Shown: one piece after another, positions 1,602 through 57,152 of the stretch
Layout of the letters: every line of letters begins with the position of its first letter
How positions within the stretch are numbered: the first letter of the stretch is position 1
DNA from: Eledone cirrhosa
Lineage: Eukaryota
NCBI GenBank assembly: GCA_964016885.1
Contig: OZ024743.1
Coordinates: forward strand, 322,710,001-322,774,000
DNA length: 64,000 bases
Direction of reading: 5' to 3'
Translations under genes and position numbers: made by a program
The notes under the pieces: generated by a model
What the model saw: the letters and a program-made list of their open reading frames with translations, nothing else
Database searches by the model: none
Told to the model about the DNA's origin: nothing

Positions 1602-4600
1602 CTGTTTATGGAACACAAAACAACAAAGTACACTTAGACAGATTAAAGAGACAACAGAACATGTTAGGAACAGGCACAAAGATATTGGGTGGAGTGTGAC
1701 TTAGAAATATTGGTGGCAGGGGACTTAGACATATTGGAGGGAAGAATCAGAGATATTTGGGGGTGGACTCAGAAATATTCAGGAGTGGGGGCAGGGACTC
1801 AGAAACATTGGTGGTAGAGATATTTAATAGAATATCTTATGTATTTACTCCAGCTCTTTGTACTCTGAGTTAAAATCCAGCTGAAGTTAACTTTATATCA
1901 TCATCATTTTACATCCACTTTCCAGGTTGGTATAGGTTGGACTTTATATATATGCACATCTATCTATTTATCTTCGGTCCATACCTCGACGGCCTACCGC
2001 GACTCTCGGATAGCGAGGCAAAGTTCTGCAAAAAGCCGATTTCAGCCGCTGAGTTAGGGGACGCGCTGAGCCAATGTGGCAAACGCAAATCTCCAGGTCT
2101 CGACGGTCTACCCTACGAATTTTACGTAGCAATGCCGGACTTATTCTCCGGTCTCCTGGAAGCGGTCTACTGCAACTGGCAACAGAACGGGAGAATTCCC
2201 AGTTCTGTAACCGGGGGCATGGTCACACTAATCAGGAAGGACGAGAATAAGGGGGATGACATAGGCAACTTCCGGCCCATAACTCTGCTAAACACAGAGT
2301 TACAGATTTTGGCCAAGGTGTTGGCAAAGAGGCTGGTGCTTGTCGTCGAGAACCTGGTGGGAGAAGCGCAGACATGCGCAATCTCGACCAGGTCCATACA
2401 CAACAACCTCCACCTCATGCGATACATCATAGAGAGGGTAGGGTGTAAACCTGGCTTCGGTGGGGCCCTGATCAACTTGGATCAGTCTAAGGCTTTCGAT
2501 AGGGTTGACCATCGTTACCTGGATGCGGTGCTCGAGGCGGCAGGCTTCGGACCCGTGTTCAGGGGCTGGATTGCTGCAATGCACAACGGCAACATCTGCT
2601 CAAGGGTCAAGGTGAACGGCTACCTCTCGGAGCCGTTCCATATTACGCGATCCATTCGACAGGGATGCCCTCTCTCCTCCCTTCTGTACGTACTGACTCT
2701 CGAGCCACTACTGCGGAAGTTGGAGCTATTGCAGGGCATCCCTCTGGAACCGGGACTGCGGAAAGCAGCGTCGGCCTACGCCAACGACGTGACAGTAATG
2801 GTGTCGAGCGCCTCGCAAATCGAGGAAGTCGCCACCTTACTGAAGGAATACGAAAGTTTCACAGGAGCGAAGCTGAACCGGGACAAGTCCATCGGTTTAC
2901 AACTCGGATCGTGGAGAGGCAAACTGATGCCTTCCGATGGCGTCGTCGGACGCTGGACGGAAGGACCGGTAAAGCTGTTCGGGGTCTGGTTTGGTCCGGA
3001 CCTCCAGGTGGAGAAGAACTGGAACGAAGTGACGGCCAAGGTGTTTGCACTCACCCAGAAGTGGGCCGAATGCAAACTATCCTTGAAAGGTCGAGCGGAG
3101 GTGGCGAACACTTTTATAGCGTCCGCCATCTACTACCGCTTGACCATCGTGCCTTGTCCAGCCAAAACGCTCGCCAAAATGGAACGCGCGCTCTTCCGAT
3201 TCCTTTGGAAGAGGCGGGCTCCTTTGGTGAGAAGATCCATCTGCTGCCAACACCCTTCTAACGGAGGGCTGGGGATGCCGTGGTTGACGATGCGCAAACA
3301 GGCGCTCAGGCTGCGGCATCTCTACGTATTCCTCACCGGACAACCGGTGTGGGGCCCGTTCGTGAGGCGAGCCTTCCCACGACTCGTCTCGCTGACCGAG
3401 CTGCAGTCCTGAGTCAAGCAAAGACCGAGGAAAATGGGCGACTGGCACATCGAATGTGCTCAGGTGCTCACAGCCCTCTGGCAGGCGGACCCGGCGATCA
3501 GTGGAGGAAGATGAACTGGCCAGTCTGTTCGGTAGGACCTTCCGCCCGGGACCGATGGACAACTTCCAAAAGTCCCTGGCCTGGCAGTGCTACCGAGGAG
3601 CTCTACCAGTTCGAGACAAGCTCTACAGACATGGGCGCCCGGGCAGGGACCCTGCAAAAAAGATCTGTCCGAGGTGCGTGCGAGACGAAGAAACCGTCGC
3701 GCACGCATTCATACACTGCCCGGGCGTCACTGACCTGTGGGGCTATGTAGAACGACTATTGTCGTGAGTGGGACCAATCCAGTTGACCACCGAGTCCATT
3801 GTCATGATCAAACCGCCACCCACCTTCAAAAACGAAGGAGAGGCGGTTTTCCTTTGTGTGATAGCTATGGCAAAAGAGGTTGTATGGTGGACAAGGTTGA
3901 AAGGGCTGAGGTCAGACACCTTTCTCTCCGGCCAACAACTGATTCTTTTTTTCAAATACCACTTTGGAAGAAGAATCAGGATGGAGAGAGAGGTGCTGTA
4001 CCCCAGCAAGTTTTATGAAAGGTGGGTGAAAGTGGCGAGAATGGCCCGAGTGAATGGGCCTTCTCTCTATATCAGCCTGTAGGTTGAGGAAAAGGAGGAG
4101 GAGAGGAAAGGAGTACAAACTCTTCGTACTCCTGGAGACGAGGGTCGCACATTTTTTCGGGGGTATGTGTTACCCATATAAACTGTCTCCCCCTATTGGG
4201 GAAAATCGACTAACTTTTTAAATTCCATTTGTGATAACATTTTACACGTTTTTATTGTATGTAAACTTCCCCCTTTGTATTTGTCCCCTTCTTTTGTGCC
4301 CCTGTGGCTAATAAAGAAACATATCTATTTATCTATCTGTTTGTCTGTCTGTCTGCTTGCCTACCTAGCTACCTACCTGCATATTTATCTCTCTCTCTCC
4401 CTCTCTCTCTCTCTCTCTCTCTCTCTGTGTATATATATATATATATATATATATATATAACAAAGGAAATGTGGTAAGGAACCAGGTGGACCATAACGCA
4501 CCAAAGTACTCAATATTTAGGGTAGTAGAGTGGGTAATAGGAACGAGTAGGACCCCGACGGCTGAGCTCAAGCCGTTTCGACGGCTAATTCTAGCCGTCG

Positions 4601-7600
4601 AAACGGCTTGAGCTCAGCCGTCGGGGTCCTACTCGTTCCTATATATATATATATATATATATATATATATATATATATATATATATATAAAAAAAACACA
4701 CAGTTCACGCTGTAATGTGGCCGTGTAGGCAACACGGTAAAAACCTCCCAGCCCCACACTGTAAATGTGGTTGGTGTTAGGAAGGGCATCCAGCTGTAGA
4801 AAACCTGCCAGATAGTCCTATGCGAGCAAGATAACCACTCTTGCCTCAAGTGGGAAAACCCTCCGTCCAAACCCATGCAAGCATGGAACACGGACGTTAA
4901 ACGATGATGATGATGATGATATATATTGAGATTGACAAATATAGGGTCCAAGAGGCAATTAAGGAAATGAAATATAGTAAGGCCACTGAACCGTCGGGGA
5001 CAGTTGCTGAGATGCTGAAGGCATCAGAAGTAGGCACTAAACTGGTTGCACACATCATCAATCAAGCTATATATGGCGGTGTCATATCCAAAGACTGGTG
5101 CATCAGTATTCTCATAAATTTCTACAAAGGTAAAGGGGATGCTCTGGAGAGGAGCAATTATAGAGGCATAAAGCTGATGGATCAGGTTATGAAAGTGGCA
5201 GAGAGAATATTAGCGGTACTAATTAGAGAAAGGGTCAAATTATATGAGATGCAGTTTGGTTTTGTGCCTGGGAAAAGAACAACAGATGCCCTCTTCTTAG
5301 TGAGACAACTACAAGAGAGGTTCTTAGAGAAGAATAAGCTACAATACTTAGATTTTGTTGACCTAGAGAAGGCCTTTAATAGGATACCCCGATCTGTTAT
5401 CTGGTGAAACTAGGTGTAGAGGAATGGCTTGTGAGGACAGTGCAAGCTATGTACAGAGGTGCTATCAGTAAAGTGAGAGTAGGAATGGAGTTTAGTGAGG
5501 AATTTCAGATACAAGTAGGAGTACATCAGGATTCAGTCCTCAGCCCACTCTTGTTCATTGTAGTCTTCCAGAGGAGTTTAAGATGGGAACTTCTCTATGC
5601 TGACGATCTGGTTCTTATAGCAGAATCAGTAGAAGAGCTAGAGAATAAATTCTGCCTATGGAAACAGCAGTTGGAATCAAGAGGATTGAGAGTGAACCTA
5701 GCTAAGACAAAAGTGTTGATAAGTAGAAAAGAGGACAATACTCTGATTCCATCAGGGAAATGACCATGTTCGATATGTAGAAAAGGAACTGGCATAAATT
5801 CTATAAAATGTACACAATGCAGATCTTGGGTACACAAGAGATGTAGTGGGATAGCAGGCAAACTAACAGGTAGGGAAAAATACATATGCAGTAGATGTAC
5901 AGGGAAATTTGACAGTAGTAATCGCAGTGATAGACACATTTTTCAAATGCAGGTGGGTTCTATAGAAGTCGTTGATAGCTTCCAGTACCTAGGTAATCAA
6001 ATTAGCATGGGAGGGGGTTCTAAGGCCATAGTATCTAGAATAAGGATGGTTTGGAAGAAGTTTAGGGAGCTGCTTCCTCTGTTGACAAAGAAGGGTTTCT
6101 CCCTGCGTATCAAAGGCTGGTTATATGATGCCTGTGTGAGATGTGCGATGCTGCAGAGGATATGCAATGGCTGGAGAGAAATGAAGTAAGCATGCTCCGT
6201 AGGATGTGCAATGTCAATGTGCGTGAAAGACCAAGCATAGACGAGTTGAGAGAGAAACTGTGTATAAGAGGGATAAGTCGTGGAGTGTGGGAGAGAAGAC
6301 TGAGATGGTATGGACATGTGATGCGCATGGAGGATGACCACTGGGTGAAGAAGTGCCAAGAAATGCTAGTTGAAGGAAGATGCAGTAGAGGAAGAGAACA
6401 AAACACATGGGCAGAGGTGGTGAGAGCAAACCTCAGACAACTAAAGCTCACAGAGGAGATGACGAAGGACCGTGACAAGTGGAGAGATGCTGTGCTGAAT
6501 AGGACCCGTCCCACCCTTGCAAGCAGGGAAAAGCGGACGTAAAATGATGATGATGATGATATATATACCCTTGCAAGCAGGGAAAAGCTGACGTAAAATG
6601 ATGATGATGATGATGATGATGGTGTGTGTGTGTGTGTGTGTGTGTGTGTGTGTGTGTGTGTGTGTGTGTGTGTGTGTGTGTGTGTGTGTGTGTGTGTGTG
6701 TGTGTGTGTGTGTGCATGTGTGTAACAATGATCATGACATCCACATTGAGAACCATCAACCTTTCTAAAGAATATACTGTCTTTGAGACATGGAACATCC
6801 ACACACTATATGGTTGTGGAAGGACAAAAGAACTTCAACATAAACTTGTCAGATACACATGGCATATCCTATGGTTGGCTAAAGTCAGGTGGACTTGATT
6901 TAGTGAGATGACTACAAATGAAGGCTACAAATTGTGGTACAGTGGAGGTGACACAAAGCTTAACCCTTTAGCATTCACATTACTCTATATATATACTATT
7001 GTATTTGTGTTCCATATACACTATTGTTTTTTCATACAGGCTTTACCTCGCATAATTATCTCACATAATATCAAATCTATGAGATTTTGAAAGTATTTAT
7101 TTTGAGAAAAATCCCTTAACATCAGTTTGAGCGACCAGTTACAGCCAGTTTCAACAGAAAGAGGTAGAGAATTCTGGCCGGTTTGAACATTAAAGGATTA
7201 AACATGGAGTGAGTTTCATCATTAACAAAACCAGAGAGAGCTCAGTCATCAGCTGTACTGTAGTATCCAGTAGACTCATCACCATGCATGTAGCTGCAAG
7301 ACCACAGAATATTACTATCATACAAGTCTATACAAGATTATTACGATGATGCTGTTGAAGAGTTCTATAAAGACCTGCAGAAAAATCATAAGGACAGCTC
7401 CTAAAAAAAGACTTCCTCATCTTTTTAGGAGACTGGAGTGCTAAAGTAGGCCTAGGAACATTTGACCAATAGTCTGGGACAGTGGAACGATTTGGGATTA
7501 AAGAAACAAACTATCGTGGATGCTGACTCTTAGAATTTGCTAGCACCATAAACTGACCCTCACCACCACACTGTTCCCACATAAAACCTCACATAGAACA

Positions 7601-56706: not shown

Positions 56707-56751
56707 AGTCATAGTCCTTTCGTCACACACTCTGTGACCTCTTCAGTGACT
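56707..56751 (-). ncRNA. Minimal type I hammerhead ribozyme, intact core
   Basis: agtca-CTGAAGA-g-gtcaca[gagtg]tgtgac-GAAA-gga-CTA-tgact. Confidence 0.8.
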
Positions 56752-57152
56752 GGGGATTCCTTTCTTTGTTTCTGTGCCTCTCCTTTGTTCTGTCCTACGC
56801 CATTTTGTTTCTGTGTGTGTGTTGTGTGTGACGAAAGGACTATGACTATATATAAACAACTATCTGGTTGTGGAACCAACCAACCAACCAGAAATTTATA
56901 AATTTATAAATTTGTAAATTTATAAATATATAATAAATTGAAGTGAAAGCAACTGGTGCGTGTGTTTCTTATTGGCAACATGACCCTCCCAAAGTATAAC
57001 AATATATATAATATATATATATATATATATAATATATATATATATATAATATATATATATATATAATATATATATATATATAATATATATATATATATTT
57101 ATAATATATATATATATATATATATATATATAATATATATATATAATATATA

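What the first reader, a model, noticed from the sequence alone, without database searches (positions are those of the whole stretch)
4458..57005. Graded series of (TA)n-associated fold-back elements that turn at the hammerhead stem II
Seen: seven elements share one design, namely two inverted arms, a one-sided extra tail and adjacent TA repeats (4458-4642, 8307-8505, 27755-31707, 43308-43530, 44327-44640, 44652-44965, 55657-57005). The spacer shrinks from about 3.4 kb (RT+GIY-YIG) to 3-4 nt. In the three shortest, the apex is a GC-rich hairpin directly followed by GAAAC or AAAAC, with no CTGANGA half. In three others, arm identity stops inside hammerhead stem II. Only the long element keeps a well-matched ribozyme in both arms. 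Established: Penelope pLTRs carry minimal hammerheads and often occur inverted. Inference: cDNA stalls in the self-complementary stem II, snaps back and self-primes, so the ribozyme helix sets the inversion point and yields a class of tiny hairpin non-autonomous elements.
Basis: partly seen in the sequence, partly recalled or inferred. Interest (0 to 1): 0.8.

Follow-up and report, generated by a model that had tools for sequence, protein, structure and literature searches.

The report
Penelope hairpins record RNA start sites
These small mirror-image repeats are stunted copies of Penelope-type jumping genes; in the family studied closely, two short DNA copies likely ran off the same capped start of the element's RNA, or off its ribozyme cut, and were joined head to head, which would show how these elements copy themselves.

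Summary
All seven fold-backs are real: inverted arms, a one-sided tail, (TA)n flanks. They are truncated insertions of at least five Penelope-like (PLE) families, not one graded series.

In family A (elements 1 and 2; 20,753 exact tail matches genome-wide):
- Junctions cluster in the 3' strand of hammerhead stem II, but 71 of 73 pairs never reach the 5' strand.
- The tail-less arm is the longer as often as the tailed one (35 vs 29).
- 68 of 73 junction strings differ.

Arms pile up at position -12, in an initiator-like motif. Non-parental purines just before it are G in 88 of 100 cases (parents have T or C), the mark of a copied 5' cap. A second class (about 330 loci) ends at or just before the predicted hammerhead cut, with A/T filler; most parent cores are the U3-A8 variant.

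Best reading: two target-primed cDNAs run off the RNA 5' end and are end-joined. In families C and D, stem II is no hotspot. The layout is known; these mechanistic fossils were not found in print.

The parts
4458..4642 (-). Element 1, family A (Hydra-like PLE) head-to-head hairpin. Tail about 4459-4536; tailed arm reaches parent position -6, tail-less arm -2; blunt join
8307..8504 (+). Element 2, family A hairpin. Arms 8307-8365 and 8367-8425, tail to about 8503. The tail-less arm ends exactly at parent -12 (inferred transcription start). Position 0 = 8377, GAAA at 8383, predicted hammerhead cut 8405/8406, internal cDNA start about 8423
27755..31707 (-). Element 3, family E: 5'-truncated EN+ PLE with broken RT (YVDD), CX4CxxC linker and GIY-YIG. 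Tail about 27755-27798; arms 27799-28051 and 31456-31707
27996..28030 (-). Minimal hammerhead core (CTGATGA..GAAA) in the tailed arm of element 3
31477..31512 (+). Hammerhead core in the inverted arm of element 3
43308..43530 (+). Element 4, family B (built like A): arms 43349-43403 and 43406-43460, tail to 43530, plus an extra diverged tail-less arm 43308-43348. Both arms stop in the loop/3' strand of stem II; a parent-like copy (L329) has CTGATGA
44327..44640 (+). Element 5, family C: the tail-less arm is the long one (CTGATGA antisense at 44399-44405 and about 90 nt upstream of GAAA); the tailed arm starts in the stem II 3' strand (44469)
44652..44975 (+). Element 6, family C (second subfamily): tailed arm long with decayed core TTGATGA at 44789; tail-less arm stops 7 nt into stem II; 3-nt microhomology at the junction
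55657..57005 (-). Element 7, family D: tail about 55657-55713; arms 55718-55781 plus 56617-56730, and 56824-57001; canonical minimal hammerhead (CTGAAGA, minus strand, from 56746) in the tailed arm only; junction in a (GT)n microhomology
55782..56616 (+). Helitron-like insert in element 7 (5' TC, subterminal hairpin, 3' CTAG, between A and T; hallmarks recalled, not from a call)

Best explanation
The fold-backs are truncated insertions of endonuclease-bearing Penelope-like retroelements in (TA)n, each likely built from two separately primed cDNAs that were joined head to head rather than from one cDNA folding back. In family A the element's RNA likely starts, capped, at an initiator-like A (position -12) inside the 3' strand of hammerhead stem II. 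Reverse transcription begins at two fixed internal sites (+46, and the tail end about +126; these ends are shown, their reading as initiation sites is by analogy to PMC11167929). Both cDNAs would run off the RNA 5' end after about 60 and 140 nt, often adding C opposite the cap, and would be trimmed and end-joined by 0-1 nt overlaps or short fillers. A minority likely used RNA cut by the U3-A8 hammerhead, so that both arms end at +29. The link to stem II would thus be coincidental: the promoter start lies there in families A and perhaps B, but not demonstrably in C, D or E. The hairpins are probably dead on arrival.
For: Shown: parents are RT+GIY-YIG PLEs. Among the first 100 of 20,753 exact tail matches, 53 tailed arms start at -16..-5, 40 further 3', and only 7 further 5'. 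Of 73 clean pairs: tailed longer 29, tail-less longer 35, equal 9; overlap 0 or 1 nt in 35; 68 distinct junction strings; 2 pass the apex. Non-parental purine before -12: G 88, A 12 of the first 100 of 3,644. Read-through parents have T or C there in 100 of 100. In 30 loci viewed, 23 have G; 13 of these are not explained by the partner arm, they span several subfamilies, and one sits directly on (TA)n. In the junction-blind sample G precedes 10 of 14 arms ending at -12 against 26 of 90 at other ends -5..-16 (p=0.005). Hairpins near +29: about 328 loci; of 51 listed, 26 have both arms ending exactly at +29 with untemplated filler, 14 are blunt (ambiguous) and 11 extend further; first non-G base A 26, T 20, C 7, so no cap mark (counted by hand). 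Among 58 pLTRs that run on into the 5' UTR, 9 start at -16..-5 (one a miscalled read-through) and 6 at +26..+31. Non-inverted tandem junctions also begin at -9..-15 (L103, L152, L163). Literature: cap-derived G in L1/SVA (PMC4859970 passages); internal Inr promoter in the Penelope pLTR (PMC2377424 passages); both-strand priming at two internal sites (PMC11167929); U3-A8 cores in PLE hammerheads (PMC4209133 passages).
Against: No transcript evidence was obtained, so the start site and the self-cleavage are inferred from DNA alone. The mode is broad (-6 to -16) and 18 of the 100 tailed arms (and more tail-less ones) seem to pass -12 or end there, with 10 at -13..-16, partly by microhomology and partly perhaps from a second start; a cap test at -16 gave only 9 G of 100. 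10 of 23 G's viewed could come from the partner arm. Arms share one haplotype in 30 of 33 hairpins (39% expected at random): this fits one template or sister RNAs, and also fits copying one arm from the other. The cap test in family D was inconclusive: junction loci G 8, T 5 of 13, most G's explained by microhomology. 13 of 43 parent arms carry a C3/A8 mismatch core expected to cleave poorly. In 25 of 58 ORF-side pLTRs the sequence reads through the -12 site, so other templates or jumps exist. The samples are the first matches on the two largest contigs, and exact patterns favour young copies.
Confidence: 0.74

Rival explanations
1. One reading: one cDNA stalls in self-complementary stem II, snaps back and self-primes, so the ribozyme helix sets the inversion point.
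For: Family A and B junctions lie in the stem II region. One family-C hairpin (L250) turns inside a natural palindromic stem II. Arms usually share a haplotype. Self-priming at palindromic junctions was proposed for PLEs in PMC3846280 (passages).
Against: 71 of 73 pairs lack the 5' strand and the natural loop; the tail-less arm is longer in 35 of 64 unequal pairs; many joins are blunt or carry fillers; the same end appears in non-inverted tandem junctions; the G mark and the +29 class are unexplained; 3 of 76 family-D arms end in stem II.
Confidence: 0.06
2. RT stalls on the folded stem II (inner hairpin at about -28..-8) while copying longer RNAs, and two stalled cDNAs are end-joined; structure, not the RNA end, sets the point.
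For: Ends fall on the 3' side of a predicted inner hairpin; it fits arm symmetry and junction diversity.
Against: It does not predict an untemplated G at one exact position with A/T at +29. The stronger GC-rich stems III and lower II are passed readily.
Confidence: 0.1
3. The hairpins are a self-propagating non-autonomous family (MITE-like or retro-mobilised) amplified from short masters.
For: About 20,000 copies of similar size with inverted ends beside TA. Short copies keep most of the presumed internal promoter.
Against: 68 of 73 junction strings differ, and recurring types occur in different subfamily haplotypes; the tail is one-sided; parents are RT elements; short copies lack the sequence downstream of the tail that the Anolis PLE needs for initiation (analogy to PMC11167929).
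Confidence: 0.05
4. Longer or perfect palindromes were inserted and later shortened at the apex by cruciform breakage and repair, creating the scatter and the short size.
For: Perfect 50-60 bp arms flanked by (TA)n are cruciform-prone (own knowledge); it could explain ends 3' of -12.
Against: It cannot create the sharp upper limit, the G at -13 or the exact +29/+29 class; it is at most a contributor to trimming.
Confidence: 0.05

Closest known systems
EN+ Penelope-like elements with inverted 5'-truncated pLTR and tail (PMC8557442; PMC3846280)
   Same: Head-to-head inverted copy, one-sided tail, hammerhead in the pLTR, partial tandems, (TA)n targets, RT plus C-terminal GIY-YIG.
   Different: In family A about 9 in 10 sampled copies are about 200 bp or less and the tail is about 80 nt (30-40 bp in the papers). 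The junctions favour two end-joined run-off cDNAs over the self-priming proposed in PMC3846280.
Hydra clade of PLEs (PMC8557442), for family A
   Same: DKT motif, RWK-like RWR, CxCX5C linker, CxxC and CxH around the conserved E and N, (TA)n insertion, hammerhead present.
   Different: No tree was built. The hammerhead has a U3-A8 core, a long stem II and a 6-bp stem III rather than a canonical minimal form.
PAc (Poseidon, Anolis) in vitro mechanism (PMC11167929)
   Same: Two fixed internal cDNA starts define the tail; both target strands are primed; AT-rich target.
   Different: That study saw no RNA reads at the hammerhead cut and did not explain the inversion; here genomic copies end at the predicted cut and at a G-marked 5' end.
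L1 twin priming and cap-derived 5' G (PMC4859970 review passages)
   Same: Two priming events from opposite target strands joined in the middle; untemplated G at full run-off.
   Different: L1 inversion does not duplicate sequence and starts at the poly(A); here both cDNAs cover the same 5' region and run off within 140 nt.
Non-LTR retrozymes (bioRxiv 10.64898/2026.07.22.740005) and MITEs
   Same: Short, non-coding, high-copy, pLTR-related (retrozymes); inverted ends beside TA (MITEs).
   Different: Not tandem direct repeats with complete ribozymes; no fixed internal sequence, symmetric ends or transposase partner.

Membership tests
EN+ Penelope-like element | Single ORF with RT followed by GIY-YIG endonuclease in long copies | tested here: met
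   Family A ORFs with YRDD and VIY..YIG; Atlas neighbours at 0.96-0.99 carry GIY-YIG, RVT_1 or HTH_animal in part of their members. Pfam scan gave 0 families for 5 of 5 queries. Element 3 has a broken YVDD and VVY..YIG.
EN+ Penelope-like element | pLTR with hammerhead motif | tested here: met
   CTGANGA..GAAA in families B, C, D, E; U3-A8 variant with all three stems in A. Rfam reported no hammerhead in the window.
EN+ Penelope-like element | Inverted 5' copy, one-sided tail, partial tandems | tested here: met
   73 clean head-to-head pairs among 100 tail-anchored copies; 3.5-kb tandem arrays.
EN+ Penelope-like element | RT phylogeny with PLEs/TERT | not tested
   No reference PLE proteins were in hand.
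Hydra clade (family A) | CxCX5C linker, DKT, CxxC/CxH in the endonuclease, no CCHH | tested here: met
   Read from natural ORFs L040 and L069 against the diagnostics in PMC8557442.
Hydra clade (family A) | RWK motif | tested here: inconclusive
   RWR at the equivalent place.
Neptune/Nematis type (element 3; family D by a linked ORF) | CX2-5CxxC linker before GIY-YIG | tested here: met
   CX4CxxC in element 3 and in L065; the two clades were not told apart.
Active hammerhead ribozyme (family A) | Self-cleavage after GUC | not testable with these tools
   Indirect only: excess of arms ending at +29.
MITE / DNA transposon | Symmetric TIRs, uniform internal sequence, fixed TSD, transposase partner | tested here: not met
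   One-sided tail, 68 of 73 distinct junctions, RT parent; a TSD cannot be read inside (TA)n.
Non-LTR retrozyme | Tandem direct repeats with two or more complete hammerheads | tested here: not met
   Elements are inverted and mostly lack the 5' core half.

The most novel reading that the evidence does not exclude
Penelope elements use a retrovirus-like strong-stop step. The capped start inside stem II and the hammerhead cut at +29 of the downstream pLTR bound a 41-nt terminal redundancy. cDNA primed near the RNA 5' end runs off and normally jumps to the ribozyme-made 3' end to continue into the ORF, which would build pLTRs and partial tandems. The tens of thousands of hairpins would be failed jumps. 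Placing the start inside the ribozyme would keep the 5' copy from cutting itself.
Probability: 0.25. Interest if true: 0.85.

Novelty: new variant of a known kind. Interest (0 to 1): 0.62.

Why it matters
How PLE inverted repeats form, and whether PLE hammerheads cut in vivo, are stated as open in the papers read (PMC8557442, PMC4209133, PMC11167929).

A young family with about 20,000 copies gives base-level fossils for both. It points to two-ended priming with run-off at a capped start, and to cleaved RNA being used as template. It also names exact positions for cheap tests (5'-RACE, a cleavage assay).

For annotation, it warns that such hairpins will be miscalled as MITEs or microRNA precursors; Rfam gave sub-threshold miRNA hits on them.

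Tried and rejected
- DNA (BLAST-type) search of the own genome with element 2 returned nothing, because common words are skipped. Patterns were used instead.
- Rfam: no hammerhead hit at E<=10. Pfam: 0 families for 5 proteins. PDB sequence search: nothing meaningful.
- A first guess of a start at -16 was not supported: G 9 of 100.
- A parent subfamily with G at -13 was looked for: 0 of 100. One subfamily whose junctions suggest such a G had no parent in my loci; its variant sequence was excluded from the pattern.
- Splicing as the cause of the -12 end was rejected: no AG lies directly upstream in parents.
- My early label 'Neptune' for family A was dropped.
- The family D cap test was inconclusive.
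- Looking for two different templates within one element: a few discordant arms carry known alleles (L014, L019, L048), but most differences could be later mutation, so this was not used as proof.
- Expression: no RNA holder listed. Contigs of four runs were laid; they show loose (TA)n ends at the two fixed 3' ends and one fold-back contig, but cannot show starts, and the best run may be the source of the assembly.
- Eight family D ends at -1203 probably mark a reference limit and were ignored.
- Family C ends are limited by the few same-subfamily parents in hand, so only presence or absence of the core was used.
- Earlier findings of this scan: none.
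Full report
Observation. All seven inverted structures exist with a one-sided tail and (TA)n at the ends; arm identities are 93-100% and self-BLAST E-values 1e-26 to 1e-90. They do not form one series. 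Elements 1 and 2 are one family (A); 4 is a related family (B); 5 and 6 are two subfamilies of C; 7 is D; 3 is E. Element 7's true spacer is 93 nt; an 835-bp Helitron-like insert (hallmarks recalled) splits its left arm.

What they are. A 25-mer from the 3' half of family A's hammerhead has 34,757 exact matches in the 3.0-Gb own genome, and a tail 27-mer has 20,753. Long copies carry an RT plus GIY-YIG ORF whose motifs (DKT, CxCX5C, CxxC/CxH) fit the Hydra clade as described in PMC8557442 (passages). Element 3 holds a broken RT/GIY-YIG ORF with a CX4CxxC linker, of Neptune/Nematis type. The inverted copy plus tail plus (TA)n layout is the published PLE layout (PMC8557442 passages; PMC3846280 passages). 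Head-to-head pairs of minimal hammerheads 100-700 bp apart were already noted in PMC4209133 (passages).

The parent ribozyme of family A. Coordinates: 0 is the G of GCCGTC before GAAA (window 8377). The 5' core lies at -55. Of 43 arms carrying it, 26 read TTGA(G/T)AA (the U3-A8 covariant known from PLEs), 13 read CTGAGAA and none CTGANGA. Stem II is long; its natural 5' strand differs from the hairpin's apex, so the apex is made by the inversion itself. Natural copies can fold into the three-stem hammerhead shape, for two of three tested as the minimum-energy fold. The predicted cut is at +28/+29.

Junction map. I examined all of the first 100 exact tail matches. The 3' ends are fixed: 92 tails end in clean (TA)n at about +126, 5 in imperfect TA and 3 run on into the 5' UTR; in the same loci, 98 of 204 arm ends at +45 go straight into TA, 101 into the tail and 5 into other sequence. 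Tailed arms start at -16..-5 in 53 cases, further 3' in 40, further 5' in 7. Of 73 clean pairs only 2 have an arm past the stem II apex. The tailed arm is longer in 29, the tail-less arm in 35, equal in 9. Overlap is 0 or 1 nt in 35; others have up to 6 nt of microhomology or short fillers. 68 junction strings are distinct. The 27 copies left out had no tail-less arm adjoining the junction or were long or complex. A snap-back needs both stem strands in the cDNA and a longer tailed arm; neither holds. Two independently primed cDNAs joined end to end fit all of this and match the two internal starts and both-strand priming seen in vitro for an Anolis PLE (PMC11167929, parts 1-2 of 4 of the text).

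Why they stop there. Position -12 is the A of an initiator-like (T/C)(T/C)A motif (consensus recalled). Read-through parents have T or C before it (100 of 100 listed, 4,004 in all). Among arms with a non-parental purine there, 88 of the first 100 have G (3,644 in all). Of 30 viewed, 23 have G; 13 cannot come from the partner arm and one abuts (TA)n directly; 10 are ambiguous. In the junction-blind sample G precedes 10 of 14 arms ending at -12 against 26 of 90 at neighbouring ends (p=0.005). An untemplated 5' G is the accepted mark of a reverse-transcribed cap in L1 and SVA (PMC4859970 passages), and Drosophila Penelope has an Inr-type internal promoter in its pLTR (PMC2377424 passages). Non-inverted tandem junctions start at the same place (L103, L152, L163). 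I infer run-off from a capped RNA 5' end. The same test at -16 was negative (9 G of 100).

A second end at the ribozyme cut. About 328 hairpins have both arms ending within 12 nt of +29. Of 51 listed loci, 26 end exactly at +29 on both arms with untemplated filler, 14 are blunt (which a CG microhomology could also give) and 11 extend upstream. The first non-G base is A 26, T 20, C 7, so there is no cap mark (counted by hand; 15 loci viewed are complete tailed hairpins in TA). Among 58 distinct pLTRs that continue into the 5' UTR (70 regions fetched for most of the first 80 of 310 matches), 9 begin at -16..-5 (one a miscalled read-through), 6 at +26..+31, 18 elsewhere further 3', and 25 read through. 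This suggests the ribozyme cuts in vivo and that the cut RNA is copied. It is about 1-2% of copies and remains inference.

Other families. In D (17,746 exact matches; 76 arms examined) only 3 arms end in stem II, 10 cluster 81-99 nt upstream of GAAA beside an A(A/G)ATGGCG motif (YY1-like, recalled), and many are long. The cap test there was inconclusive. In E, 7 of 7 keep it. In B, 14 matches at up to 2 mismatches (two from the window, one or two doubtful) mostly stop in the stem II loop, and one has the full core, like family A; no cap test was possible. The three mid-size window elements do each have one arm ending in stem II, so a modest bias in C-D cannot be excluded.

Against the best reading. 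There is no transcript evidence; the peak is broad; arms usually share a haplotype (30 of 33), which fits sister RNAs but also copying; 13 parent arms have a mismatched core; many ORF-side copies read through -12; samples come from the first matches on two contigs.

Novelty. The structure is a known kind. Seven searches of the open-access library showed no paper reporting cap-marked run-off hairpins or genomic ends at a PLE hammerhead cut. PMC3846280 favours self-priming, PMC11167929 found no reads at the cut, and PMC4209133 notes the lack of in vivo evidence. The retrozyme preprint 10.64898/2026.07.22.740005 (part 1 of 5 read) concerns tandem direct repeats. A cephalopod repeat annotation (PMC13282606 passages) has no mention of hammerheads or hairpins. 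Subscription papers on PLE structure and the supplements of PMC11167929 and PMC8557442 were not seen and may hold related coverage plots. The host was not identified.

Verdict. Observation partly confirmed; the stem II snap-back and the new hairpin class are not supported. The real interest is a fossil record of PLE reverse transcription. Best explanation 0.74; interest 0.62.

Noticed in passing
window 11128-11470: Another inverted pair (about 82%) with (CAT)n/(TA)n in the middle. It looks like two RTE-type 3' ends inserted tail to tail in one microsatellite, not a PLE.
   Followed up: no
window 14221-14832: Remnant of another PLE; tblastn hit to the family A thumb/linker region at 14524-14673 (41%).
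   Followed up: partly
window 40851-41794 and 57169-58110: Two 98% identical RTE-like 3' fragments in opposite orientation 15 kb apart; the second sits in the TA run beside element 7.
   Followed up: no
window 18335-23430: 5-kb minisatellite built from CAT/CAC triplets, open in several frames.
   Followed up: no
family A parents (L021, L064, L068): An alternative hairpin that buries the catalytic GAAA competes with the hammerhead fold at nearly equal energy; RNAs starting at -12 lack the 5' stem II strand and would likely favour it. The stem III loop is a palindrome, as in dimer-forming hammerheads.
   Followed up: partly
G000 C1 near 91.48 Mb, 377.72 Mb, 437.20 Mb (L374-L377, L401, L410): Head-to-tail arrays of family A with a period of about 3.5 kb.
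   Followed up: no
listing: About 13 of 51 hairpins of the +29 class belong to the subfamily in which the mismatched C3/A8 core was seen, against about 40% of short copies overall; a weak hint that this core cuts less.
   Followed up: partly
L023-L026, L212, L230, L277 and window 44327-44975: PLE copies of different families stack in the same (TA)n arrays, each new insertion using the TA run of an older one.
   Followed up: no
window 1874-3767, 46233-49176, 50247-53824: Decayed L1/Tx1-like and restriction-endonuclease-type non-LTR retrotransposon ORFs (labels from recalled motifs).
   Followed up: no
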